DNA from: Naegleria gruberi
Taxonomy: Eukaryota
Reading direction: 5' to 3' (one strand)
DNA length: 64,000 bases
NCBI GenBank assembly: GCA_000004985.1
Contig: GG738845.1
In this document: positions 6,766 to 54,093 of the stretch, one piece after another
Layout: every line of letters starts with the position of its first letter
Position numbering within the stretch: the stretch's first letter is position 1
Position numbers and translations under genes: made by a program
Notes under the pieces: model-generated
Database searches by the model: none
What the model was told of the DNA's origin: nothing
What the model saw: only the letters and a program-made list of their open reading frames with translations

Positions 6766-7158
6766 AAAAAACTAATATTCACATTATCTCTTTTCTATTT
6801 GATCGATGTTTTATCTTCACCAATAATATTGAGATGAGCTTATTGTCACTGAAATGTCTAGGATTTGAATAATGGCGCCAGCAACAAATTGTTTTTTTAA
6901 TTTTAATTTTAAAAAAAATATCATCACGACATACGTTCCTGCCTGCCGGAAGCGAAAAATCACCAACATCATTGAACCATCACTGTTTTTTTTGGAGTGT
7001 ATTTGTTGAGAAAAAGATATTTGAAGATTTGGATTAAAGAAGGCGGAATCAATTATTGGACATATTCGGATATTCTGCAATACAAATCTACTAAATTGTA
7101 TAAACATTTAAAATAGTGTATATATTGTTGTTATAATAATACAAAGTAAATTATAAAA

Positions 7159-8689: not shown

Positions 8690-8791
8690 ATGCTAATAGA
8701 AATATGAAGTATTTGAGGTTATTGAAGATCGTGGAAAATTAACCTTAAAGTATGAAATGTAAAAATAAAGTAATTTAATGAAGTAGTAAGT

Positions 8792-10000: not shown

Positions 10001-10207
10001 TTTTTTCTACTTTGTGTTTTTGAAGTTTTTCACCACAAAAAAATTTTGAAGTTTTCTTGATAATTTGAACATGTGATGATTATGTGGTCAATTTTGAAAC
10101 GATTTCAAAGTTTTAGAGAGCTTGAAGAAATGTTTGAGGCAAATTGCAAATAAAATTAATAGGAGAAGGATTAGGTTAAAATCTAGTTGTTGTTGTTGGT
10201 ATTTATT

Positions 10208-23320: not shown

Positions 23321-24418
23321 ATGAGTGGATGGTGGGGCGTAGGAGCTCAGTCTTCAATTGATTCAGCCGTTTCTTTGTCTAATCAACAAAAGAAACAAAA
23401 TATCACCTCTCCGAACGGCATTCGTGGATCTAAATCTAACTTGCAATCTGGTGATGTAGAAATTAATGAATTAAAAATTAATTCCATTGAAGATTTGAGT
23501 ACATTTATTCAACAATTTGCTGCTAGTATTCATAATATGGAAAGAAATGTAAAGCACTTGTTGAGAAATTACGAATCATCTAATGGTAAGAATGGTAAAT
23601 CCGCTCTTGATACTCTGAATAATAATAAGGATTCCGAGAGGTTGAGATCCAAAATTAAAGTTTCAAAGGATAAAATTCAAAAGAGTAGAGATGCCATTCA
23701 AAAGGGCTTACTTCGTTTCTCTAAAAAGAAGATGGAATCATCATCCGGTTATGATTTAGGTAGTGATACTGATTCTGTTGCTGGTGGTTTGGATTCCTCA
23801 ATTGGAGGCGTTTCATCAGCACAAAAAGTACAATTTAACAAGTTACAATCTCAGTTTAAGGAATTATGTAAACAATATGAAAAATGTATTCAAGACTATC
23901 GTGATAGTGAAAAGAGTATGAAGAGATCTCAATTGTTTAAATATGGTGATGATGATTTAGATGCCATGTTTTCCAATAAGAATGGAGATAAATCATCAGC
24001 CAAGAATGGTTCTTCCAACAGAACTAAATCTTCCAGTGCTTCCCGTAATAATGGTGACGAAGAAGAAGATGATGATCTTGGACAGCAAGCTCAAGCCCTC
24101 GAACAAAACAAATTCGTCCTTAGTAGTGCCGATCAAGGAACATTGGACGTTGAGAAACAAATCGCCCTCGAAACTAATAGAGAATTGAAAGACTTGGAAA
24201 CTAACTATTACGAATTGCATCAATGCTTTGTTGATTTGAATGAAATGGTAAAGGAACAAGGAGAAGGAATTGAAGTTATCCAACAAAATGTACAACTAGC
24301 TAACGAATATGTAGAACAAGGTGTGGAAAATATTAAGGTCGCCAAGAGTTTTACTGGTATGGGCTTATTACAAAACATCTTTTCTCCTGGTAATATCATT
24401 AAGAATCTTATTAAGTAA
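23321..24418 (+). CDS. Syntaxin-family Qa-SNARE (long Ser-rich N-terminal region); a C-terminal TM anchor was not found in this ORF (a downstream exon is possible)
   Basis: The SNARE motif is 'ALETNRELKDLETNYYELHQCFVDLNEMVKEQGEGIEVIQQNVQLANEYVEQGVENIKVAKSF', with a zero-layer Q in 'KEQGE'. The ORF ends '...SPGNIIKNLIK*'. A GTAATA donor at ~24389 could splice to a downstream TM exon. Confidence 0.6.
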   Translation: MSGWWGVGAQSSIDSAVSLSNQQKKQNITSPNGIRGSKSNLQSGDVEINELKINSIEDLSTFIQQFAASIHNMERNVKHLLRNYESSNGKNGKSALDTLNNNKDSERLRSKIKVSKDKIQKSRDAIQKGLLRFSKKKMESSSGYDLGSDTDSVAGGLDSSIGGVSSAQKVQFNKLQSQFKELCKQYEKCIQDYRDSEKSMKRSQLFKYGDDDLDAMFSNKNGDKSSAKNGSSNRTKSSSASRNNGDEEEDDDLGQQAQALEQNKFVLSSADQGTLDVEKQIALETNRELKDLETNYYELHQCFVDLNEMVKEQGEGIEVIQQNVQLANEYVEQGVENIKVAKSFTGMGLLQNIFSPGNIIKNLIK

Positions 24419-33659: not shown

Positions 33660-34413
33660 TTATTTTTTTAAACTAAATTCAAATGATAGTCCATTTCTTT
33701 CTCATGGAATTACTTGTGTAAAGTTCTTTTTTCCAATAAAGTCATTATCTTGTTAGCTTAATATTATAAAGTTGAAGTTTTTAATAATTTATTACAAAAC
33801 CAACAAAAACAACCATGAAAAGCTTGGTATTATTGATGATCTTTTTGCCTTTGGCATCAAGAATACTGTTTTGAAAAATAAATGGAGTTTAAAGGGTTTT
33901 GATTGTAAAAGTGAGATTTTAAGTGTATCAGAATAGTATGTGGATATTAATATACTCTCATATAAAGGAAAAAAGAGGATTTCATAAATCAAATTCCATT
34001 TAACAAAAGAAACCAAAAAAGTCATAAATGGGTTTAGCTTAAAATTACTTCCTTTATTGTTATCTAGATTAACATTAAGAGGAAACTTTTAGGAAAAATA
34101 TGACACAATAAATATACTTAATTCTCTCTTGGTTCAAGTTACATCATACAGTAAAAGGCCACTTAAATGAGGCGACGGGTGCCTTTGAACTTCCCACCAA
34201 ATCAAAAGCAACATCCAAAATCAAGAAATAAAACAAGTAGCTAATATATTCTGGCTTCATTCAATCTACAATCAGAATTCGTAGGATTAAGACATTTTCA
34301 GCCAAATCCCATAGGTGTAAGAAAGAGAGTTCGTAATATTTTGTTAAATCTAAAACTAAAAAAATGGCCGTATTTGAAAATATTAGACCATTACTTGATT
34401 TAAGAAATAAAGA

Positions 34414-34722
34414 ATGTTGAATTTATGTAACAGAATGCCAAAACCAGATTCAATATTTCTGGTTGCTATTAATCAAAAGGATGATAAAGGAAAACTAAGT
34501 ATAATTACTGACCTTACCTTTAACACACATAGACGAAAAACAATAATTGAGGCTCCCTCAAAAATGAACCTTTCCTTTCTTCTTTTTAATTGGAGAAGAC
34601 TTCTTCTTAGAACCAACCTTCAACATATTAATACTTTCACACTCTTTAAACTTACTTTTGTAACCTGTATCGGAACTGACACAAATGTTTTTCAAGAGGT
34701 TGTATTTCAATTAATTAATTAA
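34414..34722 (+). repeat. Diverged inverted duplicate, arm 1 (partner at 36297..36596)
   Basis: ORF 34414 translates '...IFLVAINQKDDKGKLSIITDLTFN...'. ORF 36297(-) translates '...YYLIKTKKADNKGKPSIIKDLSMQ...'. The underlying DNA is ~70% identical, in inverted orientation. Confidence 0.4.
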
Positions 34723-35394
34723 CTTTTCAAAAGGATGTTCGACATCTAAATAATTCGATTGTGGAAGTATACAAACATGATGATCCTAATGTTTTCAAAT
34801 TATTGGAAGAAAATACGAAAAGAGAGAACAAGTTTTTCTCTATAATTAAAATTGACTAAGATAAATTCAAGTTTGTTCCAAATAATAAATATTCAATTCC
34901 CAAAAATCAAAACAAGATGAAAAGAAATATTAAATAAATCAAATAATATTAATTTCACTACACTATTGATTTGCTTAACCCAACTAAAAAATGACCAGTA
35001 AGCAATCCTCTAATCCGTTGATGAAAGAATACAAGCTCTTTGTAAATGCCAAGGCTAAGAATTTGCTTATAGAAGGTATCTTGTATTCACTGGATCCATC
35101 AAGAGTTGTCAAAGGTTACTCCTTTATTGTACAACATGTAACAAAAGTGCTGAAGATGATAAAGTTTATACCAAAAACTCCTTTTGCAGAAAGATGGATC
35201 CCATTACAGGCAAAGTGTATCTAAAAGAACACCATTTATAGAAAAGCAATTGAAAACAAAGGACGAATTGGGGTTATCTGATACTCTTTTAGGTAAACTA
35301 AGGGTTGTTATGTTTATATTTTAAATTTACTTACGTTTTGAACACAATATCAATCCGTATTCCCAAGTATGTAAAAACAAAAAAGAAAACGGAT

Positions 35395-35556
35395 TCCAAT
35401 AGAAATTAAAATACAATCTTTTTCTTTTTGTTATTGTTAAAGGTTCAGGCAAAATATTTGTACTGGTTTTACAAATTAACAACAAATCACATTTAAAAGA
35501 ATTAATTTGATTTTCTTGATGAGATAAAATGTGATAGGTTTGATGTGTCATTTTTT
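35395..35556 (-). repeat. Interspersed repeat family copy 1 (foldback-like element end, minus orientation)
   Basis: Contains 'aacaaatcacatttaaaagaattaatttgattttcttgatgagataaaatgtgataggtttgatgtgtcattttt'. This is the reverse complement of the consensus head 'aaaaatgacacgtcaaatctatcacattttatctcatcaagaaaatcaaattaattcttttaaatgtgatttgtt'. Confidence 0.7.
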
Positions 35557-35875
35557 AAATCAAATATGAGAATGGATGGAAAATGTTTTTATTTACAAGA
35601 GGGGATGAAAAATCAGATGGGTAGTTGGATCCATCCACAAAATCAAAATCCTGTGTGATGTTGTAAATTCTGTTCGGCGGAGGGGTTATGTGGGATTCTT
35701 GTAATTCTAAAAGGTCAACAAATTGTTGGTTAATAACATAATAAATGATAAACAAAAGAATTCCTTGTTTAAGTTTACTCCTTCGCCACCTTAATAAATT
35801 GTTGTAAGCTTTTACAATAAAATTTATGTTAACAACAAACTTTTAAAAGAAAAAGATGAAAGAATTTATTTAAAT

Positions 35876-36035
35876 CAAAAAAATGACACGTCAAATCTAT
35901 CACATTTTATTTCATCAAGAAAATCAAATTAATTCTTTTAAATGTGATTTGTTAATAATTATTAAAACCACTACAAATATTTTAATAGCAAAAAGAATAC
36001 ATTGTATCATACATAGGATGTTTATTAAGACTTGT
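35876..36035 (+). repeat. Interspersed repeat family copy 2 (plus orientation); head-to-head with copy 1 across a ~320-bp spacer
   Basis: Shares the same ~80-bp head and the downstream 'tatcatacataggatgtttattaagac' box at 36003-36031. The small track ORFs 'MT(R/H)Q(I/T)YHILSHQENQINSFKCDLL..' are translations of this repeat. Confidence 0.7.
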
Positions 36036-36296
36036 CAGACAATATTGTCTTCATCATTTTCTATTAATTCTTATAATTCTTCCATAATTAAATCTTCATC
36101 TCTATTCTCTTTTCAGCTTTAATTAAAGGTTTCGTTGGTAGTAGGTTTGTTATTAAAATACTGTGTGGTGTTGTGGATTTTGTGTGGCAGAGGGGGATTT
36201 GGATGACAGATTTTCCATCCCCTCAATCTGAATCTATTGGAATTCCGTTTTGAATTTAATGTGGTGAATCATGTTGGAAACATCGAATTCTTGTTA

Positions 36297-36596
36297 TCAA
36301 GTTGTGAAAACGAGAGAGGTGATTATCAAGAGAAATGTTGGTATTACCTTGTCAATCAACATCGCGTCCACATGAAAGACGCAACCACTATCAAGAGCAA
36401 GTAAGGATTGTAGTGGTGATTGCATCGATAAATCTTTAATAATACTTGGCTTTCCTTTGTTATCAGCTTTCTTTGTTTTTATCAAATAATAGCTGTTGGG
36501 GTCTGGTTTTCTATTAACAAAATTAACATTTTCAATTTCTTGAATAGAATTAACTTTGTTGATATCTTTGGCAAAATCATTCAAATATCGTGCCAT
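36297..36596 (-). repeat. Diverged inverted duplicate, arm 2 (partner at 34414..34722)
   Basis: See arm 1. The two arms bracket the copy1/copy2 foldback cluster. Confidence 0.4.
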
Positions 36597-37337
36597 ATTT
36601 TTTAATTTCGAAACTTGTTTAATGTTTGATCTTTAAAAAAAATGGCGGTAAAAAAATGGGCGGGAAAATAATCGTGAAATAAAAAATTGTGCGTTTAGCA
36701 GGTTTGGTACCCCTTCCTACGTTAAGTCTACTCATTATTCTACAACTAAGCCACGAAACATATAATACACGATCTGTATCTATCTAGTGTAAAGTGTTAA
36801 TAATAAGTTTCAGTTTTTCCACAAATTTATCGCCACAGCCTGCAACAACCTTTACAATGTTAATCATGTATCATTTATGAGGATAATGGTTCAGTTATAT
36901 CAATCTCTATTTTGGTGTGAAAGAGTTTGGCCGGATTTGATAATATGAACATGATAAGACCCGTCCGACGACGGGTTTGAGTAAAGGAAGGGAAATAATA
37001 ATTAAACGAACTTATATTTTATTAAGTTTACAATAAAATAAAAGGTGTAGGTTTATTAATGTCTCTTGTATCAATAACGACCTGAGAGACCATAAGTTTA
37101 CAATAAAAACAAATCCATTCTTCACTTCGCTCAGAATTAGACAGAATAAAAGAATGCATTTTCGGACCAAACTTATTGACTTTCTCAACTTCCTTTGTTA
37201 AAGTTTAGTTTTGTTCAATTTCGAAACTTTCACTTCCAATTTTCCAACTTTATCTTCATCTGGATTTTCTTTCTTTTTATTCTTAGGAATTATTTTTTTT
37301 GGATAAATAAGAATAGGTAAAAATATTAAAAAAATCC

Positions 37338-37665
37338 AAAAAAATGTCATGTCAAATCTATCACATTTTGTCTCATCAAGAAAATCAAATTAATTCTTTT
37401 AAATGTGATTTGTTGTTAATTTTTAAAATCACTACAAATATTTTGCCCAAAACGTCAACAATAACAAAAAGAAAGTATTTTAATTTTCTCAAAAGAAAAA
37501 ATATAAGTTTAGGTTTTTTTATAAGAATTGCTATTATGAGAGTACTAAATAAGTATTATATTACTTCTTCGAATTTGGAGAAGAATTGGTATTGTAGTTG
37601 AAAGAAAGATCTATTATATCATACACATGCATGAGATGTTTATTAAGACCAAAAGTAACAGATTT
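37338..37665 (+). repeat. Interspersed repeat family copy 3 (solo, plus orientation)
   Basis: Head 'aaaaaatgtcatgtcaaatctatcacattttgtctcatcaagaaaatcaaattaattcttttaaatgtgatttgtt' at 37338-37415, plus the 'tatcatacacatgcatgagatgtttattaagacc' box at ~37615-37650. Confidence 0.65.
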
Positions 37666-38399
37666 GGTAAATAGAAAAATCCAAGGCTACTTTCAAAATC
37701 TAAACAAATACACTAAAAAGATCAAATGGAGAATGGATATATAATATTTTGCATCCTCTGTGTCAGTTTGGGGAGAAATTATGAGCTGGTTGAAGATAAT
37801 TTTCAAGGCAGGTACATACAATTCTTTAGCCACTTGATGAAAGGGACAAGCAAATCTTTTAATGATGATCCCATTTTTGCAAATTTTTAAAATTGTTTTT
37901 GAGAAATTTGTTAGTTGACACAAGATGTTCTTATCGAGGTTTGTGTAGTGGGTTCTAATATTATTAATACTAGTATTGAGTTAACAAGCTTAATCAAGTC
38001 ATGGTCAATTTTTCAACATTACAACAACAACAAATGGTTGAAAAATTACTTATTAACCAAGAGGTTAATAAGTACATTGCTAAAAGATTCAATAATATCA
38101 CTTCTACTAACCCAAAGATATTGTCAGAATATGAGAATATCAAGAGGGTGGTTAGATCAGCCCTTATTTTGGCTAGTAAGTTGCTAGAAGAAGGAACTTG
38201 TTGTTTATTGTGAGCGAAATATAATAGCTCTTCAACACGCTGATAATCCTGTAGTGACTGTCCAAATAGTAAGGCCCAAATCAATAAACAAGATGCATCT
38301 TTCTACTCAGACGAATCTTTTTTTCGTGAACATCTCTACATATCGTAGACATGTTAAGAGATGGAGTGAAGGTCCTTCCAATCCATCTCAAGATTTAAT

Positions 38400-40330
38400 T
38401 CTATTCAAAGGCCAAGAACTTGGCTTGTGAAAGAACTCTTCAAAGAATTGGAGCAATCGAAGAATGTACAGATCTGGTGATTATTTCAAGATACAGATTG
38501 GTTCCAAAGAGGGATTCATATCGACTGATAATTAGAGATGGATTGCCGATCATTAGGTATAATGATAGAGAAGAAAAAGAGTTATCTAAAACCAATGAAA
38601 ACGTTTCAATTATTAGGAATAATTGTAGATTTAGAAAAGAAGATATTGTCAATGAATTCGTCAACAATAATCAAGATAAAACAAAGAATTGGAATGGTTT
38701 TATCTCAATTTCATCAAGGAGAAAGAATTTTCTTTAGAGATTTATATCGTATCACTGGTATTGTTATTGCTTATCTAGATTGTTTTCAACCAGCAAGAGT
38801 AATGCTCAATCCAATTTATACATTTGCAGCAGAGAAAGTTTTCAAACACGGATGGGAAGGAAGTTGTTACCTCTCCGATCGAGTAGTTTACTGTCTCCAA
38901 TGGATTTCAGCAAATCTGAATTTTTGGAATGGAAAGGTTTTTCAATTCCCAAGTCTGGTGAATTATTTCTGGACAGACGCTTCAAAGATTGGATGGGGAG
39001 CTCATTTCAAGGAGAAGAATTTAAAAATCAATGGTCATTGGTCGGAAGAAGAAGCAAAACAATCAATCAATGTTCTAGAGTTAAGAGCTGTTTGGAAAGC
39101 TCTTCAACAATGGAGAAAAATTCTGAATGGTCAAAATTTGATAATTTACTTGGATTCTATGGTAGCTCTACACACCATAAAAAAGGGTGGTTCAAAATCC
39201 AAGACAATCTCTCGAATAGTTCAATCGATATGGAGAAAAATTTTCGAGGAGAATATTCAACTCCTTTCATTGGAATGGTTGTCTTCTCAGGAGAATTCAA
39301 TTGCAGACGCACTGAGCAGAACTCCAATAGAGACGGATCCAACAGATTGGGAAATCTTAACAAGTTCCTTCAACCGAGTACAGCAGCAATTGAATGTATC
39401 AATCGATTTGCCAGCCCGTACAATTTCAAGGTAAATCCCATTCTGTACAAGACACAGAACCAGCAGGGAAATTCCAGCAGATTCATTCTCCCGTCTTTGG
39501 ATAGAACCAGTAATCAATTGGTGTTGCGTCCCATTCAATCTAATAGGGAGAGTAATCCAACATTGCATAGAATCCAAAGCTCAAATGGTTCTAGTTCATC
39601 CAGTGTGGAAATCCCAATATTGGTGGAAAACTATAGAAACTCTGAGAGTGAAATCTGTAGAAGTTTATGGACGAGATTTCAAGTCTACAAAAAGCGGGAA
39701 GGTGGAGCCTTCGAAAAAGTCTTGGAATTTAGAAGCCAGTCTTTTGGACGCTCGCTCCAAGACTTGACAGATATTGCTTTAATGTTAATGCCTCATCATA
39801 TCAAAGATTCGACTGCGGCAACGTATGATTCATATTGGAGAAGGTTGATTGAATTTGCAATTCGTAACTTTTTCAATCCTCCACCTTCTGAAGATTTGGT
39901 TTTTTTATTTATTACTGATCTATTCATCACTTGGCCAGTGGTGGTAATTGTAAACAAGCAAAGTTTGCAATTAAGAATAGATGTAAATTATTTGGTGTAG
40001 ATGATCCCACTACATCTCAACGTATTCAATTACTCATTTCAGGGATGTGCAATGTATCATACGTTTTCTCTCCACGAATTAGAAATCCATGGAGTATTGT
40101 TTATATTCGAAAGTGGATTCAGGTTGGAAGGAATTTTGTTCCTGAAAAATCATTTATTATGTACACAACTTTAATTAAGACAAGTTGCTATTTGGCTTAA
40201 TATAGAGGGGAAGTTTTCTTCCCATTCATTAAGAATTGGTGGTGCGACCGATGCTGCTTATGCAAAGATTGGTAAAGAGGCAATCAAGGCGATTGGTGAT
40301 TGGTCTTCTGATGCAATTGATATCTTCGAT
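38400..40330 (+). mobile_element. Degenerate DIRS/Ngaro-type tyrosine-recombinase retrotransposon remnant (RT thumb - RNase H - 'LVHPVW' domain - YR C-terminus), frameshifted
   Basis: Track ORF 38538..39434 has the RT C-terminal 'FQLLGIIVDLEKKILSMNSSTIIKIKQRI' (the FLGY..K motif), then RNase H 'FWTDASKIGWGAHF...NVLELRAVWKALQQW...DSMVALHTIKKGGSKS...ENSIADALSR'. A frame-shifted continuation carries 'IDL(P)ARTIS..', and ORF 39585 carries 'MVLVHPVWKSQYWWKTI' (the DIRS 'ILIAPxWPxQxW' signature). At ~40200-40320 comes 'KFSSHSLRIGGATDAAYAKIGKEAIKAIGDWSSDAIDIF', a tyrosine-recombinase H-x-x-R...Y box. Several frameshifts and stops mean it is non-functional. Confidence 0.6.
38538..39434 (+). pseudogene. 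RT(thumb)/RNase H ORF of the DIRS-like element
   Basis: See the parent element. The RNase H catalytic-residue context (TDAS...ELRAV...D..SIADALSR) is typical of YR-retroelement and LTR-type RNase H. Confidence 0.55.
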
Positions 40331-40395
40331 CTGAATTTTCTATTGACATAAACGTATCTAAAGATTTGGGTTTTTAGTTTTTTGCTGGTAGGACT

Positions 40396-40446
40396 CAGTA
40401 TTTCAGAAACGACACCTTATTTTGTTGTTGATAAACCTATAAACAG
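40396..40446 (+). repeat. Dispersed ~45-bp direct repeat R1, copy a (possible DIRS-like terminal/ICR fragment)
   Basis: 'cagtatttcagaaacgacaccttattttgttgttgataaacctataaacag' matches 'tagtatttcaaaaacgacacctttatgataaacctataacag' at 43590-43631. Confidence 0.5.
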
Positions 40447-40523
40447 GGTCAAAAGAAGCATTATTAAGACAACAAACACTTGTTTTTGAGCAATTAGAAG
40501 GAAACGAAGAAATCACAGTAGCA

Positions 40524-40730
40524 ATGGATGGTTCATTTGAGAATAAGAGAGGTGGTATTGGAATTGTGACGAAAACTCAACAAATATCAATGAAGGCATT
40601 CGCTGCTGCATCGTCATTTGATTGTGAAATCCAAGCCATCTACATGGCCCTAAAAATGACAGCCAAGTTCCAAAGAATTAACATATTATCAGACTCACAA
40701 GCTAGTATCAAGATTATTCAAAGGAGATAA
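40524..40730 (+). pseudogene. Isolated RNase H-like fragment (retroelement-derived)
   Basis: 'DGSFENKRGGIGIVTKTQQISMKAFAAASSFDCEIQAIYMALKMTAKFQRINILSDSQASIKII' fits the RNase H DGS...G.G...AE(L/I)QAI..AL...I.SDSQ pattern. It lies just 3' of the YR fragment and is unlinked in frame. Confidence 0.45.
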
Positions 40731-40978
40731 GAACTGTAAATATTCAAGCAAATCAAATCTCTATACAAGCAGGAGAAAAAATTAATCAAATGCCAAATCT
40801 TTGCAAAATTGCTCTTGATAAATATTCCTCTTCAATAGTGGAAAATAATCCATCAGTGAAGATTAACATATTCCCTTACTTTCCACATATTTATTAAACA
40901 AAGATTTGAATTAAAATGAAACATTCTTTAAAAATGTCCAAATATAAATCTTCTGCTATCAATGATCAGAACCTTGTG

Positions 40979-42793
40979 CTATTGTAAAATAAAATAATCC
41001 GGAAGTGGATCTAAATTTCTGTTTAAAAATCCAAAATCTATTAATTCTTTGTCAAGACTAAAAAATTGTGGTGCATGGGTGGAAATATTAATTTCAAACA
41101 CATCTATTGTAAATTTAACGCGCTTAGAATCTAATTTCTCAAAATCACAGTTTGTAACATCTTGGAAGTCGATATTATTGCGGCGGCATATGTGTATTTC
41201 TTTTAAAGTTGGGCTATTAACTAAATATCGGGCTGCGTTTAATGATAAATTATTCTGCAAATATAAAATTTTCAAATTTGGCAATCGAGTCCTTCTAGAA
41301 AATATTTCCATACATTCTGAATCATGTGTTAGTATTCTTAATCTTTCTAAATTAATCAAATTTGAAAAAGCAATTATATGAATATTTGATGAATTAATGT
41401 TTAAAAAAAAGCCACATTCAAAGTAAATTAAATTTAGTAAATCACCATTACATAAGTAATATAATGCAGAATTGTTAATAGGAGAACAAATTGCTAAATG
41501 TGTTAATTGGCTCATTTGCGCAATAATTTTAATATTTTCTGTTGATAAACATGAATCAAAACCATTTCCTAAACATAATCCTCTTAATGAATTTAGCTCC
41601 AACATACTGCTCATGTCAATGTTTAATGTTGATGCAAATAAATGTAGATATTTAATATTTTTAAAATTGTTCACAAAATTATTAAAATTATAATTATTTC
41701 TAAAATATTTAGTGTTTGTATGCAAATATAAACATTCTAATGCTGGCATTGAAATATTTTCTAAATTGCACGTACCATGCCATTTTGCAGCACTAAAATA
41801 ATTATTAATAACCAAATGTTTCAATAAAGGTAAGCATGTAATATTGTGTATGCTTGATTCATCAGGTATTTGTAGTGATGTTAAATTAGAAAAATTAATA
41901 GTAGGCGGTAATGGAAAGTAAAAAAAATTAGGTCCAATATTTAGTAATTCGAATTGATGAGAATACTTAATAATTTCATTGTAAATTTGGTTTAAATGTT
42001 TAAAAACAGTAGTACCAATATAGATTGAGAATTTTGTTAACAATGGAAATTTTGAAAAATCAAAAGTAGAATCAATAGTTTCCATACTGTTACCACATAT
42101 CGATAATTCTTTTAAATTAGAATAAGGGATATCAATATTGAACAAGTAAGAAAATGCTTTTTTAAAATCCCAACTAACGTGAAACATAAATGTATCTAAT
42201 TTAGTATGAACGTAATTACACAATAATTTGTATGATTTCTTTGAATTAATTCCACTAAAACGCATGCTTGAAAGTGCCAATTGTTTTAATTTTGGTAGTT
42301 TAAACATATTTTCTATGTCATTAGAGCTTAATGTGAAGTTTTTAATATGTAATTTTGTGATATTTGAATGTTGTAGTATATTATCAGAAATAGAACTAAA
42401 TTTAATTCTATAAACACCACTATTTTCCACTCCACTTATTACTAATTGTACTAATTTTTTAGATGTTAACATTATTTCGAGAGTGTCTTTGAAATCAGTT
42501 ATATTATGTAATGTTATTCTTGCAAATAATTGCAAAAAATTGTGTTTTTCCCCCAAGCCGCAACGAATTTGTTTTGTTTTCTTATCAAAATATCTATTCA
42601 TAAAATCCCTTTTGTATGGTAATGAAAAAGCTGCTTGTCTCCATTCCGAACACACATGAGTGGCGCATATTAAACTGTTTGTGTTTAAATAGGAAAATAT
42701 TTCTAATAATAAATCGTATGGAATGTTGCAAGGAACAGTATCGTTTCTTTCCTTTTTTTTTTTACGTAAAGGAAAGAGGAAAGCGTGTAGCAT
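40979..42793 (-). CDS. F-box / leucine-rich-repeat protein
   Basis: A 604-aa single ORF with an ATG at 42791-42793 (reverse complement). The N-terminal F-box is 'IPYDLLLEIFSYLNTNSLICATHVCSEWRQAA'. The remainder is an irregular LRR ('LKELSICGN', 'LTSLQIPD', 'LKHLVINN', 'LRGLCLGN', 'LTHLAICS', 'LERLRILT', 'LKILYLQNN'). Confidence 0.7.
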   Translation of the reverse strand: MLHAFLFPLRKKKKERNDTVPCNIPYDLLLEIFSYLNTNSLICATHVCSEWRQAAFSLPYKRDFMNRYFDKKTKQIRCGLGEKHNFLQLFARITLHNITDFKDTLEIMLTSKKLVQLVISGVENSGVYRIKFSSISDNILQHSNITKLHIKNFTLSSNDIENMFKLPKLKQLALSSMRFSGINSKKSYKLLCNYVHTKLDTFMFHVSWDFKKAFSYLFNIDIPYSNLKELSICGNSMETIDSTFDFSKFPLLTKFSIYIGTTVFKHLNQIYNEIIKYSHQFELLNIGPNFFYFPLPPTINFSNLTSLQIPDESSIHNITCLPLLKHLVINNYFSAAKWHGTCNLENISMPALECLYLHTNTKYFRNNYNFNNFVNNFKNIKYLHLFASTLNIDMSSMLELNSLRGLCLGNGFDSCLSTENIKIIAQMSQLTHLAICSPINNSALYYLCNGDLLNLIYFECGFFLNINSSNIHIIAFSNLINLERLRILTHDSECMEIFSRRTRLPNLKILYLQNNLSLNAARYLVNSPTLKEIHICRRNNIDFQDVTNCDFEKLDSKRVKFTIDVFEINISTHAPQFFSLDKELIDFGFLNRNLDPLPDYFILQ

Positions 42794-42825
42794 TTTTTTT
42801 GTTGTTATGTTTTATTGATACAGCT

Positions 42826-42966
42826 CATCAGATCCTCTCAAAAATAAACAATCACAATCTAGAATGTCAACAATTAAAGAGTGGAATGTGAAACGATTTC
42901 TAATAATTTAAAAATCCACTCCTTCTAAAAGCATCACAAAAAATCATGACAGTCTTTTTGTTTGGA
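42826..42966 (+). repeat. Dispersed ~140-bp direct repeat R2, copy a
   Basis: 'catcagatcctctcaaaaataaacaatcacaatctagaatgtcaacaattaaagagtggaatgtgaaacgatttctaataatttaaaaatccactccttctaaaagcatcacaaaaaatcatgacagtctttttgtttgg' is ~90% identical to 46315-46453. Confidence 0.7.
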
Positions 42967-43589
42967 TCTAACACATTAAAAGATTTACTTGCCACTTTCA
43001 CACCACAAGTGGCTAAAGAATTCCCACCACCCCACCCTAACACAGAATAATTTCAATAGAAATTTCAGATCTAGTAAGTCAATAATTTTTTAATAATTTA
43101 TTATTTTATTGGATTTCATTTGATTATATCCAATTTGGTGACAGATAATTTGGTCAAATGACATTTTCATTTGGATAGCCAATTATCTAAAGCAATAGCT
43201 TTTGTAGTATTGCTTGGTGGTGGATATCAAGTGGGTATCACTATCAGGAACAAGACAGGATCATTTGTTGACCTGGTTCCTTAATCAAATATGTGAAAAT
43301 TCTAACAATTTTTTATATGATTTGTGTGTTTATTTAATTTTTTAAATTTAAAGCACTGCTATGCAGAGAATTAGTTAGCAAGTTTTCAGATATTTCAATA
43401 TTTCAGATTTGTTTTTATGGTTTTTTAAGGTTTTTTGAATTTATTAGATGGTTTAATGGGCGCATAGTTGCAACTATTAGAGGTATTAGAGTTTAAAAAT
43501 TATACAAAAGTTGATTAATGATATCCTCAATCATTATTTATTATTATTATTCTTGCGAATTAATTTACACGCGTGTAATAGAATAAACT

Positions 43590-43631
43590 TAGTATTTCAA
43601 AAACGACACCTTTATGATAAACCTATAACAG
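43590..43631 (+). repeat. Direct repeat R1, copy b
   Basis: See R1 copy a. The two copies bracket the F-box/LRR gene (3.2 kb apart). Confidence 0.5.
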
Positions 43632-43919
43632 TATGCTCTAAAAAAAACCACAATGAAAAAGAATAAACTGACTTTTAATTTCAGGAGATCAGAATGGCAT
43701 TAAGGAGGGAATTGTATTTTACAATACTATTACAACAGAAACCAAAAGTTTTACAAATCAATCTGACATTACAATATTTGGAAAAAAGAGGATTTCATGA
43801 ATCAATTTTCAAAATCATTACCATCAAAAGAACATAAGTTTCTGATTGTACAATTTTAAAATTAATCCCTTTAAAAAAAGTTTGAAATGGAGAATTAAAA
43901 TAAACACAAAAGAAAGCAA

Positions 43920-44076
43920 ATTCAAATAGAAATTAAAATACTTTCTCTTTCTTTTTGCAACCATTGAGGGCAAAATTTTTAGAGGTTTTAATAATTAATA
44001 ACAAATCACATTTAAAAGAATTAATTTGATTTTCTTGATGAGATAAAATGTGATAGATTTGATGTTTCATTTTTTT
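43920..44076 (-). repeat. Interspersed repeat family copy 4 (minus orientation)
   Basis: 'acaaatcacatttaaaagaattaatttgattttcttgatgagataaaatgtgatagatttgatgtttcatttttt', plus the upstream 'aatagaaattaaaatac...' segment shared with copy 1. Confidence 0.7.
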
Positions 44077-44461
44077 TACAAACTCTATTACCAATAAAAC
44101 CAAATATCTAAAAAAGATAATTTCTTAAAAGAGTTGTTGGTTTGATATTTTGTTTTTTGTAGAAAAACCAATCTCGTAAATATGAATGTTCATTAAGTCA
44201 AAATCAGAAACCTAAATCCTTTAAGACATGTCTATGAAGATATCTATTAATTGAATCAGAAGACCAATGGTTAAATTTACCTTTATCTTTGCATAAAATT
44301 ACATCTTGAGTTAATAAATTATCATTGTAATATTATGGTCAATTTTCACCAATCCATAGCCTTGGTAGATTGGTTTGGCCATAACTATTATATTAATAAC
44401 TTTCACTAAATACACTTTATTAAGGTGGAGAAAGAGTGACAAATTTTAAATATTTTGCTTT

Positions 44462-44860
44462 AAAAAAATGACACGTCAAATCCATCACATTTTATCTCAT
44501 CAAGAAAATCAAATTAATTCTTTTAAATGTGATTTGTTATTAATTATTAAACCCACTATTTTAATAACAAAAAGAAAAAGAAAATATTTTAATTTCAAAA
44601 TGAATCCGTTTTCTTTGCAATTTATTTTAGCATCCTCCATTGAGAGAATGGAAATATTACTTCTTCGAATTTGCAGAAGATATTGGTATAATATTAAAAC
44701 CAGACTGGAAAGGGTTTTTAATGGCGGGTTTTAAACATCTGCAATAATATACAAATGTTTAACTATATTTTCATTGAGAACCTTTTCACCTTTACGGCAA
44801 ACCAATACGACAGGTAAATCATATATTGTATCATACATGAGATGTTTATTAAGACCATGT
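44462..44860 (+). repeat. Interspersed repeat family copy 5 (plus orientation); head-to-head with copy 4 across a ~390-bp spacer
   Basis: Head 'aaaaaatgacacgtcaaatccatcacattttatctcatcaagaaaatcaaattaattcttttaaatgtgatttgtt' at 44462-44540, and 'tatcatacatgagatgtttattaagacc' at 44829-44856. Confidence 0.7.
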
Positions 44861-46314
44861 AAAATTATTGCCTCTTATTGCCAAAATCGACAACAATAAA
44901 CAAACGAAAAGAGATTTCATTTTTTAAGTTGTTCTCTTGATTTGGCTCTTAATTACACTTTCCACATAATTGGTAGTATTTATAAAAGACATACTACTTG
45001 TTCGGCCTGTATTTGTTAATAAATGTCAATGCTTATTCCATTGCTCATGGAAGTATTTGCAAAAAGCACCTTCTTTGTCTGTGTTTTCCAAAGCCTCTAA
45101 AGTAAATGGAAACTGAAAACCCTTTTTCTTGAAACTCGTTTAATAATGAGTCACAAATATCCACACCTATATTGTAAATAGCTTTCTTGAAGATTGATTC
45201 TGTGATATCAACGATATCTTTAACACCTTCCAGTTTACCTCTGTGGTGATGTGTTTCCAATAGCAACCACCTGACCTTTACATAAATAAAAATAAACATT
45301 TTAAACCAAGTCGAAGAATACCAAGTTATAAATTGTTGAAATGGAATAATCTATTACAGATTTTGTATTTTGTGTTTGGTTATTACTTTGTACCTCTTTT
45401 GTTATATATTTTCACCTTCTTCCTGCGTTGTATGTTTTTTTGTATTACCTGTTTAGGTTAGGTTAATTCTAAAGCTCTATTCATATTCAGATTTTTCTTT
45501 TGGTTTGACTTATCCTTCAAATTGTGTTAGAGTTGTTTTATTTTTGCTACAAATAGAGTTAGTTTTGTAGCAAAGGTTAGGCCAAAAAGAAAGCTCTTGA
45601 TAAGGAAAGCTCTGTTGTTGAAGTTATACTGAATGTCCAAATGTGGAAAAATATGTGTTAAATTAGTGGGATGGATTTTGGATATTAATATACTCTGTAA
45701 ATCTCACTCATTTTGAATCCGAGTTGAATTAAAGTTGATATATTCTAAATCAATAACACTTTCCCAAAGGAAAAAACATAGTAATAAAATATTGAATTTT
45801 ATTTTATTTCATTATTTGCTCAATTTTATTCTATTTCAAAAAAAAGAATCCAAATACAGTGTTTTTCGTGTTTTGCATGTTTTTTCATGTTTTTTCAAAA
45901 ACGACTCTCACTGTCCCAACTTTTTGGATATTGGTGAATAAATAATCGGCAAAAAGCCAAAAGAAGAAAAAAGTTTATTTTTTAATTTTCTTATAAATAT
46001 TCGTAAAGTGATTTAAATGTATTCTTTGTTGATAATTACTCAAAACACAACACATTTCCAAATAATATTATCCAATCCAAGATTATGATTAACGAGGCAT
46101 CATTAAAAATCATTAACAAGAAATTAATGGCTCTACGTTAAGACCTAAGTTAAGCTGACGTTAACAGAAACAATTTATGAAAAGAAAAAAAAATTCAACA
46201 TAGTGAATGAACCGCCACCATTAATGGTGAATAGACTAATGTTACAGGAAATTAAGGAACCTCATCTTAATTCAATTTGATATTGTAACTTTCCTTTTCT
46301 TAGACAGCGTCTTC

Positions 46315-46453
46315 ATCAGATCCTCTCAAAATTAAACTATCACTTTCTGGAATGTCAACAATTAAAGAGTGGAATGTGAAACGATTTCTAATAATTTAAA
46401 ATTCCACTCTTTCTAACAGCATCACAAAAAATCATGGCAGTTTTTTTGTTTGA
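46315..46453 (+). repeat. Direct repeat R2, copy b
   Basis: See R2 copy a. It lies 3' of the kinase gene. Confidence 0.7.
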
Positions 46454-46545
46454 AGTTGGAAGCCAGGATATTGATGTATAAATATTCTTTTGTTAACAAA
46501 AGAACAGAAAATTAGAAAATTGGCCTTTAATATGAGTTCTTTCCC

Positions 46546-48002
46546 TCAATCAGACTTTACCTTTTTTTGTTCAGGTTGTGATTCTACCATCAATTCTGTT
46601 CTTTCTCTCTTTTTAGACATTAATAATTCTTCAAATTCTTGACGGGTAATATTTGGTATTTGTTTGTCAATGGTTGGAGCACCATAGGAATAGAATTCAT
46701 CTTTTGAAATACCCAATACTTCCAAACATTGTTGGACAGAGGGTCTAAGCTTAATATCATGTAAGACCATTTTCCCAATTAGATTACAAATTGTATGATC
46801 ATTTGTCTTTTTCAACAACTCAAAATCAATGTATTTCTTTGTTTGTAAGGCAACCCCCAACATTTTAGCAAATACAAGTCCCAGAGAATAAACATCTGAT
46901 TTTGGTGTAATGTAATTTTTGTCCCTTTCTTTTTCTGGAGGATTGTAAGCGCTTGTTCCAGATGAGGACTGGATTATTCTCTTGTCTGAATCATAGCAAA
47001 TTTCATCCACTTGGTCATACCTCGCATATCGTTTGCAAGCTTCGAAATCAATGAAATAAGGATAATCTTGATAAACAATTATATTTTCTGGTTTGATATC
47101 ATTGTGAAGTACCTCATCTTCATGGAGAAAATAGAGTTGAGCTAATAGTTGGATCATCAGAGTGGTCTTATTAACCCCCTTATTCTTATCGATATATTCT
47201 TCAAGTGGTGTTCCTTTGTAGCTGACATCAGAATAATTTATATACATCTTTGTAACAAGATCACTATAACCAATCATTTCTGAATAATGTAATCTGAGCT
47301 GCCACAATTTGAATCCAGAATCTCTATCGTTGTTATATAATTTTACAATACACTTGTCTTCTGTGTTAACGATAGTTCCTTCATACAAAAGTTTGTCACC
47401 AGTATTAGCCATTTCTCTTTCAATTTGAATAGCAAACTTGATGGAAGCACTAACAATACATTGCACAACACTGCCAATTGGGAGGCTTCTATTAGGTTGC
47501 CCTTTTTGAGGACTTGTCAAATTTGATTTTTGAGATGTCTCCTCTTCAACTAAATGTTTACAAATAAGTTTTGTTATGGCAGATGCCATATAAGCAGAAG
47601 TAATCAAAAAATTACATAACGCAATTCTATCCTCTTTCTTCTGAGTGTTATACACGCCAGAAAGATACAATAAATAGTCAATACAAATAGTACGGTTGTC
47701 TGCCTTATATAAATAGGGCTTCAATGTCAATATTATAACTTGTGCTCCACTTGATAGAATTCCATGACAACAAATACAATTATGGAAATTGCACACGTTG
47801 TTAACAATACTGCCTCTAGTAGTTTGAGAAAGTATTAATCTCATTTGTGTGATAATTTTGAGAACGTCTGGATAATCTGATAGATTGTCCTCACTAGGTT
47901 TGTTTTCTTCAACAAAGGATAGCAAGAAATATTTGGAACCTGTCACAATTTGTATTTCTTCGGGATTAGTTTCGGTTTGAGAGGCAAAATGCCGAGAGGA
48001 TT
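46546..48002 (-). CDS. Atypical protein kinase-like protein (degenerate catalytic motifs; possible pseudokinase); 5' partial - the ORF continues into the assembly gap
   Basis: The kinase core has 'HNDIKPENIIV' (HRD changed to HND), 'IDFEACK' (DFG changed to DFE), 'SAYNPPE' (APE-like) and 'DVYSLGLVF'. There is no canonical GxGxxG loop. The track start at 47946 is a GTG; the frame stays open upstream ('...SSRHFASQTETNPEEIQIV|TGSKYF') right up to the N-run. Confidence 0.55.
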
Positions 48003-48476
48003 NNNNNNNNNNNNNNNNNNNNNNNNNNNNNNNNNNNNNNNNNNNNNNNNNNNNNNNNNNNNNNNNNNNNNNNNNNNNNNNNNNNNNNNNNNNNNNNNNN
48101 NNNNNNNNNNNNNNNNNNNNNNNNNNNNNNNNNNNNNNNNNNNNNNNNNNNNNNNNNNNNNNNNNNNNNNNNNNNNNNNNNNNNNNNNNNNNNNNNNNNN
48201 NNNNNNNNNNNNNNNNNNNNNNNNNNNNNNNNNNNNNNNNNNNNNNNNNNNNNNNNNNNNNNNNNNNNNNNNNNNNNNNNNNNNNNNNNNNNNNNNNNNN
48301 NNNNNNNNNNNNNNNNNNNNNNNNNNNNNNNNNNNNNNNNNNNNNNNNNNNNNNNNNNNNNNNNNNNNNNNNNNNNNNNNNNNNNNNNNNNNNNNNNNNN
48401 NNNNNNNNNNNNNNNNNNNNNNNNNNNNNNNNNNNNNNNNNNNNNNNNNNNNNNNNNNNNNNNNNNNNNNNNNNNN
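48003..48476. other. Assembly gap (474 N)
   Basis: A run of n characters. Track ORF 47950..48867 with a poly-X translation is an artefact spanning it. Confidence 0.99.
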
Positions 48477-52784: not shown

Positions 52785-53238
52785 ATATATTTGTTCTGAT
52801 ATTACATCTAGAGTAATTTGGATTTTTTATGAAATCATTTCTAATGTGTGTATGTGTAGGTTGGATTGTTTCATCTCTTTACCATTTATGTAGGTTTGGA
52901 GATACTCATTTGAAAAACAAAGATATCTTGTTTATGAATTTCTTCCTAATCTAGATGATATCTTTATCGAGTTCAAAATGAGTTCGATTATTCTTCAAGT
53001 TATGAAATAACAAATTAATGACCTATATCTACAGTAATTATGATTCAGTTGATACAACAAAAGTTCTTCAATGTACTTTGCAACCAAGACCGAATCAAAG
53101 CACTAAACAGAACATTTCGAACAGAGTTACCTTGTTCAATAGACAGTTGACATTTGACAGCTAATCAACAAGGCATAGCCTACGGTCAAATAATTCAAGG
53201 CCATCACATAAAAAAAATTCTCAAAAACAACAATAACA

Positions 53239-54093
53239 ATGGCTGAATACAAGTTTGTCGTCTTAGGTTCAGGAGGTGTCGGTAAATCTGCCCTTACCAT
53301 CCAATTCATTCAAGGAAACTTTGTTGAAAAGTACGATCCTACCATTGAAGATTCATACAGAAAGCAAATTGAAGTCGATGGAAAGGCTTGTATGTTGGAT
53401 ATTTTGGATACTGCCGGACAAGAAGGTTTGTTTTTCAAAATAGTTTAGTTTCTAATAGTATTATTATTATTTAATTTATTTTGTTATCCATTATCATATT
53501 TTTTGGATAATGATGATGATGATGAAACTAACATTATTTGTTAATTTCAACATTCAAAATCGGTTATTTTTACACTTTGATTTTTATTACACCAACAACA
53601 ACAATAACAATAATTCGAATAATGATATGATGATAATAATATAATAACAATAGAATATTCTGCTATGAGAGATCAATATATGAGAACTGGACAAGCCTTC
53701 ATTCTTGTCTACTCCATCACCGATCCTTCATCATTCGAAGACTTGTTGACCATTCATGAACAATTGTTGCGTTCAAAGGATGCCGATGAAGTTCCAATTG
53801 TTTTGGTTGGTAACAAGTGCGATTTGGAGGAGGAACGTGCCGTTTCAAAGGACGAAGGAAAGTCAATGGCTGAAAAGTTTGGTGACCACTGTAAATTCTT
53901 AGAAGCCTCTGCTAAGGAATCTATCAATGTTGAAGAAATTTTCATGAGTTTGGTCAGATTGGTCGACAAGTTTGAAAATGGTGGCGGTGATGATGAAGGT
54001 GAAGAAGAAGCTGAAACAAAGAAGGACACTAAGAAGGATACCAAGAAGAAGAAGAAGAAGATTACTCTCCCAAAGAATTGTATGCTCTTGTAA
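53239..54093 (+). CDS. RAS: Ras-family small GTPase paralog (CaaX 'CMLL'); 2 exons 53239..53425 and 53654..54093
   Basis: '[62 protein letters not shown]' | '[58 protein letters not shown]...[12 protein letters not shown]...[16 protein letters not shown]'. The intron is G|gtttgt...aacaatag (228 nt). Confidence 0.9.

What the first reader, a model, noticed from the sequence alone, without database searches (positions are those of the whole stretch)
33700..46500. Gene-poor, TE/repeat-rich island containing a DIRS/Ngaro-like tyrosine-recombinase retroelement remnant
This is the only stretch without dense housekeeping genes; outside it a gene is called roughly every 1.5-2 kb. It contains (i) a frameshifted YR-retrotransposon 3' half in the order RT-thumb, RNase H, 'LVHPVW' domain, YR box 'HSLRIGGAT...Y' (38.4-40.3 kb); (ii) an unlinked RNase H fragment (40.52-40.73 kb); (iii) five copies of a foldback-like repeat; (iv) R1 and R2 dispersed direct repeats; and (v) a diverged 300-bp inverted duplication. 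The only intact genes inside are an F-box/LRR gene and an atypical kinase. Both families are classically expanded in TE-rich compartments of early-diverging fungi.
Basis: partly seen in the sequence, partly recalled or inferred. Interest (0 to 1): 0.55.

Follow-up and report, generated by a model that had tools for sequence, protein, structure and literature searches.

The report
Dead tyrosine-recombinase retrotransposon in Naegleria repeat island
The stretch is a gene-poor, repeat-rich patch of the Naegleria gruberi genome (an amoeboflagellate, not a fungus) that holds a broken copy of a DIRS-order retrotransposon, a kind of element already reported in this species, so the finding is real but ordinary.

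Summary
Window 38,043-40,377 (+) is a decayed, internally deleted retrotransposon of the DIRS order. Its parts run in the order Gag scrap, RT N-terminus, RT thumb, RNase H, "methyltransferase-like" LVHPVW domain, tyrosine recombinase (YR). The RT catalytic core and the YR Arg/Lys region are deleted. There is one in-frame stop and several frameshifts, and the catalytic Tyr codon is present but out of frame.

The host is Naegleria gruberi, shown by exact protein matches, not an early-diverging fungus. The element has the MT-like domain and a long second reading frame overlapping pol, so it is not Ngaro.

Its closest named intact relatives are three 99.9%-identical 4.78-kb copies in N. lovaniensis. 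These carry split direct repeats (A1...B1A2...B2), which makes the lineage PAT-like rather than DIRS1-like in the strict sense.

Also confirmed:
- five repeat arms (two head-to-head pairs plus one solo arm)
- a 93%-identical 145-nt direct pair
- a weak inverted duplication
- a second, unrelated RNase H fragment
- low ORF coverage (26-37% inside against 54-73% outside)

DIRS-like copies in N. gruberi were published in 2011, so novelty is low. I could not test whether the non-coding repeats are dispersed across the genome.

The parts
33700..46500 (.). Gene-poor, AT-rich repeat island (27-29% GC apart from the retroelement)
   Evidence: ORF coverage is 26-37% inside against 54-73% outside.
34339..34507 (+). 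Left arm of the weak inverted duplication; its partner is 36,437-36,641
   Evidence: blastn gives 62-67% identity, E 2.5e-7 in a tiny search space. The encoded peptides are 43% identical over 37 aa.
36437..36641 (-). Right arm of the weak inverted duplication
35375..35556 (-). Repeat arm c1 (left arm of head-to-head pair A)
35876..36031 (+). Repeat arm c2 (right arm of pair A). About 320 nt of unique DNA lies between the arms.
37337..37650 (+). Solo repeat arm c3, about 390 nt upstream of the retroelement remnant
38043..38171 (+). Gag-like N-terminal scrap of the retroelement
   Evidence: tblastn of P0001 aa 37-79: 37% identity, E 5e-4
38480..38560 (+). RT N-terminal motif (YRLVPKRDSYRLII), in a different frame from the rest of pol. 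The RT core that should follow it (FDMKSGY, YLDD; P0001 aa 331-445) is deleted.
38532..39431 (+). RT thumb plus RNase H (FWTDAS, ADALSR). It ends at the in-frame TAA at 39,432-39,434.
   Evidence: Pfam; tblastn 57% identity to P0001; stop codon
39435..39764 (+). MT-like domain of DIRS-group pol (NWCCVPF...LVHPVWKSQYWW). The DRFAS motif is damaged.
   Evidence: Alignment with L001 and with N. lovaniensis pol. Motif order and spacing match the published DIRS1 table.
38738..39997 (+). 420-codon stop-free frame, -1 relative to pol, running into the YR N-terminal domain (the long pol/YR ORF overlap)
   Evidence: 0 stops observed against 14 (RH segment) and 6 (MT segment) expected from synonymous shuffles. 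The same holds in L001 and L002.
39722..40176 (+). YR N-terminal (core-binding-like) half, split by a frameshift at about 39,937
   Evidence: tblastn of L001 ORF2 aa 1-152; alignment A4
40175..40377 (+). YR C-terminal remnant: HSLRIGGAT, GDW, the Tyr codon at 40,321-40,323 out of frame, and the conserved stop at 40,375-40,377. The Arg (RGxELG) and Lys (KVKND) region is deleted.
40443..40727 (+). Unrelated RNase HI-type fragment (N-terminal half only)
   Evidence: Pfam RNase_H 7e-9. PDB hits to the HIV RNase H domain have E 2e-3.
40979..42793 (-). Intact 604-codon F-box/LRR ORF. It has no homologue and no self-match in the protein database, so it is apparently unannotated.
   Evidence: Pfam F-box-like 1.4e-9; no hit among 5.8e9 proteins. 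The longest open frame in 200 shuffles of the island is 157 codons.
42821..42968 (+). Direct repeat R, copy 1 (just 5' of the F-box ORF)
   Evidence: 93% identical to copy 2
43886..44076 (-). Repeat arm c4 (left arm of head-to-head pair B)
44461..44855 (+). Repeat arm c5 (right arm of pair B); the longest version of the unit
46309..46456 (+). Direct repeat R, copy 2 (just 3' of the kinase gene)
46546..47946 (-). Protein kinase gene. It is annotated in N. gruberi as a 347-aa 'predicted protein' that is 100% identical to the ORF.
   Evidence: Pfam Pkinase 1e-17; P0008 and paralogue P0009

Best explanation
Window 38,043-40,377 is a dead, internally deleted copy of an MT-containing (DIRS-group) tyrosine-recombinase retrotransposon. 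It sits in a gene-poor, AT-rich, repeat-bearing stretch of the Naegleria gruberi genome.

What an intact ancestor encoded (shown by relatives): Gag, a pol (RT, RNase H, inactive MT-like domain), and a tyrosine recombinase whose reading frame overlaps pol for more than 1.2 kb in the -1 frame.

How it moved (inferred from established knowledge of the DIRS order and from the intact N. lovaniensis relatives): it was transcribed and reverse-transcribed. Complete ends were rebuilt using the internal copy of the joined termini (B1-A2). It was then inserted by YR-mediated recombination at a short ATT/AATT homology, without a target-site duplication.

Why the window copy can do none of this: the RT active site and the YR Arg/Lys region are deleted. 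Pol has an in-frame stop. The YR is broken by three frameshifts. No terminal repeats survive.

The Naegleria lineage is most likely PAT-like (split direct repeats) rather than DIRS1-like in the strict sense. The surrounding foldback-like arms and the R pair are non-coding repeats of an unidentified family.
For: - Host: exact protein matches to N. gruberi, and the kinase is 100% identical to an N. gruberi protein.
- Domains and order.
- Lesions: RT motifs FDMKSGY and YLDD lie in the missing interval P0001 aa 331-445. YR aa 153-242 are missing. There is a TAA at 39,432. The Tyr codon is out of frame.
- DIRS-group membership: the motifs FWTDAS, ADALSR, CVPF and PVW occur with the spacing seen in 28 annotated DIRS1-like elements.
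- ORF overlap: the -1 frame is stop-free in three copies that are 57-65% identical at the protein level, while synonymous shuffles never give 0 stops. Ngaro and VIPER lack both the MT domain and long overlaps.
- Intact relatives: L001 ORF2 is a YR (Phage_integrase 5.5e-5; XerA model 1.9e-7). Three N. lovaniensis copies are 99.85-99.9% identical over 4,778-4,782 bp, with an A1...B1A2...B2 repeat structure and ATT termini.
- Literature: 7 degenerate DIRS1-like copies were reported in N. gruberi (PMC3266345). DIRS accounts for 89 copies in N. lovaniensis (PMC6125883). The definition of PAT against Dirs1 against Ngaro is in PMC4157794.
Against: - No terminal or internal junction repeats can be found around the window copy. 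The PAT-like assignment therefore rests on a relative whose proteins are only 41-45% identical to the window copy's closest intact relative (L001) and 41-44% to the window copy itself.
- The window's YR box alone is below Pfam significance (E 0.053).
- The MT-like domain matches no Pfam model. A structure prediction of it failed (pLDDT 39.5), so 'MT' rests on published motifs and position only.
- No phylogeny with reference Pat1, Toc, Kangaroo, DIRS1 or Ngaro sequences was possible.
Confidence: 0.9

Rival explanations
1. The element is DIRS1-like in the strict sense: inverted terminal repeats plus internal complementary regions, as assigned to N. gruberi by similarity search in 2011. It is not PAT-like.
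For: Piednoel et al. filed the N. gruberi copies under DIRS1-like by TBLASTX against Repbase. The long pol/YR ORF overlap is described as a DIRS1-like trait. The motif set matches their DIRS1 table.
Against: The only complete relatives available (N. lovaniensis L005-L007) have direct repeats, not inverted ones: A1 at the 5' end, B1-A2 after the YR, and B2 at the 3' end. No inverted terminal repeats were found there. The 2011 authors themselves called the N. gruberi assignment uncertain.
Confidence: 0.3
2. The element is Ngaro-like: a YR retrotransposon without an MT domain.
For: [quoted passage not shown]
Against: An MT-like domain lies between RNase H and the YR, and it is conserved in the window, L001 and N. 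lovaniensis. A long ORF overlap is present. Both features are stated to be absent from Ngaro and VIPER.
Confidence: 0.03
3. This is a chance juxtaposition of two unrelated fragments: a Ty3-like pol scrap next to a Crypton-type YR DNA transposon.
For: The pieces lie in different reading frames, and the RT/RNase H is Ty3-like by Pfam.
Against: The same contiguous order and spacing is found in an intact metagenomic contig (L001) and in three N. lovaniensis copies. The window aligns collinearly to them across the pol/YR junction.
Confidence: 0.02
4. The foldback-like arms and the R pair are local duplications private to this locus. They are not members of a dispersed transposable-element family.
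For: All copies lie within 35.4-46.5 kb, with none elsewhere in the 64-kb window. The conserved 32-mer is absent from the metagenome collection. The arms show no coding constraint: variable columns by codon position are 8/9/4.
Against: All five arms share one sharp boundary (AAAAAAATGACACGTC...) but have non-homologous spacers and flanks. Identities of 78-93% are scattered rather than graded. This pattern fits independent insertions or a foldback element with a variable centre.
Confidence: 0.35
5. The island is a foreign (for example giant-virus) insertion that brought in the F-box/LRR and kinase genes.
For: The F-box ORF is an orphan, is unusually AT-rich (26% GC, GC3 20%), and has the lowest codon-usage correlation with the window's host ORFs (r 0.66).
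Against: Neither protein has a relative in the viral contig collection. The kinase has host-like codon usage (r 0.88) and an N. gruberi paralogue. The published survey found no viral enrichment among methylated genes in N. gruberi.
Confidence: 0.05

Closest known systems
PAT-like elements (Pat1, Toc, Kangaroo): DIRS-group YR retrotransposons with split direct repeats
   Same: The domain order RT, RNase H, MT-like domain, then a co-oriented YR is the same. In the intact N. lovaniensis relatives, the A1...B1A2...B2 split direct repeats have the internal copy downstream of the YR.
   Different: About 500 nt, including a 134-nt tandem pair, separate A2 from B2. Gag and the YR share one 1,332-codon frame that encloses the whole pol ORF. 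The window copy itself retains no repeats. No phylogeny was done.
DIRS1-like elements (Dictyostelium DIRS-1 and relatives; Piednoel et al. 2011, PMC3266345)
   Same: The pol and YR motifs (xTDAS, ADxLSR, xFPP-like, PxW, HSxR) and their spacing match. There is a long pol/YR ORF overlap. The termini are ATT and the junction trinucleotide is ATT. N. gruberi copies were reported under this name.
   Different: The complete Naegleria relatives have direct terminal and internal repeats, not inverted ones.
Naegleria lovaniensis 'hypothetical proteins' XP_044550393.1, XP_044549064.1 and XP_044543601.1
   Same: These are the closest named homologues. They are 41-44% identical to the window's pol and YR pieces, rising to 63% over the YR box, and 45% identical to the metagenomic relative P0001. 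They share the same native GDW variant in the YR box.
   Different: They are young and intact: three copies are 99.9% identical. They are annotated as spliced host genes. The window copy is old and broken.
Ngaro / VIPER
   Same: Both are YR retrotransposons with split direct repeats.
   Different: They lack the MT domain and long ORF overlaps. Both features are present here.

Membership tests
DIRS order (tyrosine-recombinase retrotransposons) | RT/RNase H of the Ty3-like type, linked to a tyrosine recombinase instead of a DDE integrase | tested here: met
   Pfam RNase H hits. Collinear tblastn to an intact pol plus YR. The relative's ORF2 hits Phage_integrase at 5.5e-5 and the XerA model at 1.9e-7.
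DIRS group (DIRS1-like plus PAT), as opposed to Ngaro/VIPER | MT-like domain between RNase H and the YR | tested here: met
   The sequence NWCCVPF...HPVW...WW is conserved in the window, L001 and N. lovaniensis. Its position and spacing match the AFPP and PxW motifs of 28 published elements. The fold-level test failed (pLDDT 39.5).
DIRS1-like (strict sense) | Inverted terminal repeats plus internal complementary regions | tested here: not met
   None are found around the window copy. The complete N. lovaniensis relatives have direct repeats instead. The window copy is truncated, so the result for it alone is inconclusive.
DIRS1-like (strict sense) | Long overlap of the YR ORF with pol (present in about half of the described members) | tested here: met
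   The -1 frame is stop-free over 340-550 codons in the window, L001 and L002, whereas synonymous shuffles average 5-37 stops. In N. lovaniensis the pol ORF of 676 codons is nested in a 1,332-codon frame.
PAT-like | Split direct repeats A1-B1-A2-B2, with an MT domain present | tested here: inconclusive
   Met in the N. lovaniensis relatives: A is 180 nt, B is 44 nt, and the B1|A2 junction reads CAACAAATT|CGGTAG. It is not testable on the truncated window copy, and no intact N. gruberi copy was reachable.
Active tyrosine recombinase | Catalytic R...K...HxxR...(H/W)...Y all present in one frame | tested here: not met
   The first Arg and the Lys region are deleted. HSLR and W are present. The Tyr codon is out of frame.
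Active reverse transcriptase | Palm motifs, including YxDD | tested here: not met
   P0001 aa 331-445 (FDMKSGY at 359, YLDD at 424) have no counterpart in the window.
MITE / foldback transposon (for the five arms) | Conserved outer termini, target-site duplications, and many dispersed copies | tested here: inconclusive
   The sharp shared boundary faces inward in both pairs, and the outer ends are ragged. No target-site duplication was seen. Genome-wide copy number is not testable with these tools.

The most novel reading that the evidence does not exclude
Naegleria's tyrosine-recombinase retrotransposons are PAT-like, not DIRS1-like. This would extend split-direct-repeat, MT-bearing elements to Discoba. 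They have an unusually compact layout in which one Gag...YR frame of about 1,300 codons encloses the entire pol frame. The N. gruberi remnant still carries the stop-free signature of that double coding. The flanking head-to-head repeat arms could be an undescribed non-autonomous family of the same genome.
Probability: 0.5. Interest if true: 0.3.

Novelty: already known. Interest (0 to 1): 0.15.

Why it matters
It matters little beyond annotation. It shows that this patch of a well-studied protist genome is transposon debris rather than a new system, and it corrects the assumed host.

There are three modest gains:
- The "uncertain" 2011 report of DIRS-like elements in Heterolobosea is backed by intact, evidently recent copies in N. 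lovaniensis. Those copies are mis-annotated as spliced host genes.
- Their repeat structure argues for a PAT-like rather than a DIRS1-like assignment.
- A 604-codon F-box/LRR ORF appears to be missing from the N. gruberi protein set.

Tried and rejected
- I searched for inverted terminal repeats, an internal complementary region, or split direct repeats around 37.4-41.0 kb. Only chance-level matches of 16-31 nt were found. No internal copy of the repeat-arm terminus exists.
- I tested whether the five arms are a coding first exon, because each starts at AAAAAAATG with 45-94 open codons. Substitutions are not concentrated at third codon positions (8/9/4), so I rejected this.
- I tested whether the arms or the R pair resemble non-coding parts of the related elements. 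There was no hit.
- Metagenome scans with the pol alignment and with the arm 32-mer found nothing.
- Viral-contig scans with the kinase and the F-box ORF found nothing.
- Looking up the N. gruberi locus by its annotated kinase and the kinase's paralogue gave nothing on record, so official gene calls and other N. gruberi copies were unreachable.
- AlphaFold on the MT-like domain with a 3-sequence alignment gave pLDDT 39.5. This is unusable, so I ran no fold search.
- Rfam and tRNA scans of the island found nothing. Only two trivial tandem repeats were found.
- The R unit shows no significant secondary structure (z -0.14).
- The kinase next to the truncated element in metagenomic contig L002 is not specifically related to the window's kinase.

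Full report
**Host.** The window is AT-rich (about 25-37% GC) and densely packed with long, mostly intron-poor ORFs. Two of them, 23,321-24,418 and 8,792-10,000(-), are exact matches to Naegleria gruberi proteins XP_002683328.1 (syntaxin) and XP_002683623.1, on a 1.56-Mb scaffold. The kinase ORF is 100% identical to another N. gruberi predicted protein. This is a heterolobosean amoeboflagellate.

**Is the island real?** Yes.
- Open frames of at least 130 aa cover 26% of 33,700-46,500 against 67% of the rest. At 100 aa the figures are 37% and 73%.
- At those two thresholds, the lowest-coverage 12.8-kb windows in the whole sequence start at 34-36 kb.
- Most of the inside coverage comes from the retroelement remnant and one ORF.
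- GC is 27-29% in the island outside the remnant, against 32.5-34% in the flanks.
- Every repeat family found in the 64-kb window lies between 35.4 and 46.5 kb. The exceptions are a pair of Ras paralogues and one weak 51-nt match.

**The retroelement.** Pfam finds RNase H models on 38,538-39,434. A search of 5.8 billion proteins gave three hits. The best is P0001 (850 aa, 57% identity), from a 3.7-kb JGI metagenome contig, L001. P0001 carries a Gag-like part with a CCHC knuckle, then RT, RNase H and an LIHPVW domain. The next ORF on L001 is an intact tyrosine recombinase (HSLRIGGAT...GHWKSDAVDRY; Phage_integrase 5.5e-5; archaeal XerA model 1.9e-7).

tblastn of these proteins onto the window gives a collinear map:

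| Part | Window coordinates |
|---|---|
| Gag aa 37-79 | 38,043-38,171 |
| RT N-terminus aa 305-330 | 38,480-38,560 |
| RT thumb, RNase H and MT-like domain, aa 446-850 | 38,532-39,740 |
| YR aa 1-72 | 39,722-39,937 |
| YR aa 73-152 | 39,937-40,176 |
| YR aa 243-293 | 40,175-40,327 |
| YR tail to the family's conserved stop | 40,321-40,377 |

About 58% of the coding capacity survives.

Disabling lesions:
- The RT interval holding FDMKSGY and YLDD (aa 331-445) is deleted.
- The YR interval holding the first catalytic Arg and the Lys (aa 153-242) is deleted.
- There is a TAA at 39,432-39,434.
- There are frameshifts at about 38,530, about 39,937 and about 40,176.
- A 2-nt loss puts the catalytic Tyr codon (40,321-40,323) out of frame.

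The 'GDW' in the YR box is native to the Naegleria lineage and is not a lesion.

**Which kind of YR retrotransposon?**
- *Motifs.* Piednoel et al. (PMC3266345) give the conserved motifs of 28 DIRS1-like elements: DLxDAY, YLDD, xTTDAS, ADxLSR, AFPP, PxW and HSTR. The window has FWTDAS, ADALSR, CVPF (74 aa after ADALSR), PVW (25 aa further on) and HSLR, with matching spacing.
The literature regards this domain as an inactive PCIF1-derived methyltransferase (PMC4738411).
- *ORF overlap.* The frame -1 to pol is stop-free for 420 codons in the window (38,738-39,997) and runs into the YR N-terminal domain. The same relative frame is stop-free in L001 (561 codons) and in L002 (500 codons, then on to the YR). 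These copies are 57-65% identical in protein. Shuffling synonymous codons within pol gives 5-37 stops on average and never zero in 2,000 trials for the main segments.
- *Conclusion.* Long pol/YR overlap and an MT domain are described for DIRS1-like elements and as absent from Ngaro and VIPER. Ngaro is excluded.

**Intact relatives and terminal repeats.** An exhaustive HMMER search with P0001 found 1,135 representative proteins at E<=1e-30. Most of them align across RT, RNase H and the MT-like domain. The closest named one is from Naegleria lovaniensis (XP_044550393.1, 45%), with two further near-identical copies.

Their three loci (L005-L007) share 99.85-99.9% identity over exactly 4,778-4,782 bp and then diverge completely. 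This defines a young, complete element. Its layout, in L005 coordinates:

| Feature | Coordinates |
|---|---|
| A1 | 5,891-6,070 |
| Stop-free frame, 1,332 codons: Gag with CCHC, then the overlap, then the YR | 5,905-9,900 |
| Nested 676-codon pol frame | 6,974-9,001 |
| B1 | 9,912-9,955 |
| A2, abutting B1 | 9,947-10,128 |
| About 500 nt containing a 134-nt tandem pair | 10,129-10,630 |
| B2, at the 3' terminus | 10,631-10,672 |

The element begins and ends with ATT/AATT, and the B1|A2 junction reads CAACAAATT|CGGTAG. No inverted terminal repeats exist there. By the structural scheme of Szitenberg et al. (PMC4157794), an MT domain plus split direct repeats plus a co-oriented YR equals PAT-like.

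I transfer this to the window copy only as the most likely assignment (about 0.55). The window copy has lost its ends, and no phylogeny could be run.

**Prior knowledge.** Piednoel et al. already listed N. gruberi with 7 DIRS1-like copies in 6 families. They described them as too damaged for phylogeny and called their assignment uncertain. The N. lovaniensis genome paper lists 89 DIRS fragments (99 kb), and N. gruberi has 5.1% repeats. The finding is thus a known kind of element in a genome where it has been reported.

**Other contents of the island.**
- *RNase H fragment.* 40,443-40,727 encodes the N-terminal half of an RNase HI-type domain (Pfam 7e-9). It is unrelated to the Ty3-like RNase H of the remnant. 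It occupies the place where the internal repeats of the YR element should follow the YR stop, so the remnant is truncated or overwritten there.
- *Repeat arms.* Five copies of a 155-395-nt non-coding unit are present. They share an invariant 40-nt core and one sharp end (AAAAAAATGACACGTC...). In both pairs the sharp ends face each other across 320-390 nt of unrelated DNA, and the outer ends are ragged. This is foldback-like but not a classic MITE. There is no coding constraint. Whether the family is dispersed could not be tested.
- *R pair.* The two copies are 93% identical over about 145 nt. One lies just 5' of the F-box ORF and the other just 3' of the kinase.
- *Inverted duplication.* It is real but weak (62-67% identity).
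- *F-box/LRR ORF.* It is intact at 604 codons, while the longest open frame in shuffles is 157 codons. It has a significant F-box. It has no homologue, not even itself, in the protein database, so it seems to be unannotated.
- *Kinase.* It has one N. gruberi paralogue at 46%.

**Verdict.** The biology is ordinary: a decayed DIRS-order, probably PAT-like, retrotransposon in a repeat island of N. gruberi. Interest is low. The side observations on the N. lovaniensis elements are the only mildly new material.

Noticed in passing
window 40,979-42,793 (-): An intact 604-codon F-box/LRR ORF (26% GC) has no hit in the 5.8-billion-protein database, not even a self-match. The neighbouring kinase does find its N. 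gruberi entry. The ORF is probably a missed or orphan gene.
   Followed up: partly
window 46,546-47,946 (-): The kinase open frame is 466 codons, but the annotated N. gruberi protein (P0008) is 347 aa. There is one paralogue, at 46% identity, on another scaffold.
   Followed up: partly
L005 5,891-10,672; L006 6,637-11,418; L007 5,891-10,668 (N. lovaniensis): Three 99.9%-identical 4.78-kb YR retrotransposons have split direct repeats. The whole pol ORF (676 codons) is nested in a 1,332-codon Gag...YR frame. In GenBank they are annotated as spliced 'hypothetical proteins' that jump between the two frames.
   Followed up: yes
L002 2-1,705 and 1,709-3,713 (ENA metagenome contig, 33.5% GC): A 5'-truncated copy of the same retroelement family directly abuts a kinase/DUF6826 ORF in the same frame. 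That kinase is not specifically related to the window's kinase.
   Followed up: partly
window 4,224-4,672 and 53,222-53,856: Inverted matches of 73-76% identity, 49 kb apart, correspond to two Ras-family GTPase paralogues (ORFs 3,999-4,655(-) and 53,665-54,093(+)).
   Followed up: no
window 48,003-48,476: A run of 474 N (assembly gap) lies just beyond the kinase gene. The right edge of the island is therefore not fully sequenced.
   Followed up: no
window 42,821-42,968 and 46,309-46,456: The two copies of the 145-nt R repeat sit immediately 5' of the F-box ORF and immediately 3' of the kinase gene. Together they bracket a 3.3-kb gene-free segment that contains foldback pair B.
   Followed up: partly
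window 35,557-35,875 and 44,077-44,460: The spacers between the head-to-head repeat arms are unrelated to each other, although the arms are 80-93% identical. This suggests a variable centre or independent insertions into a palindromic element.
   Followed up: partly
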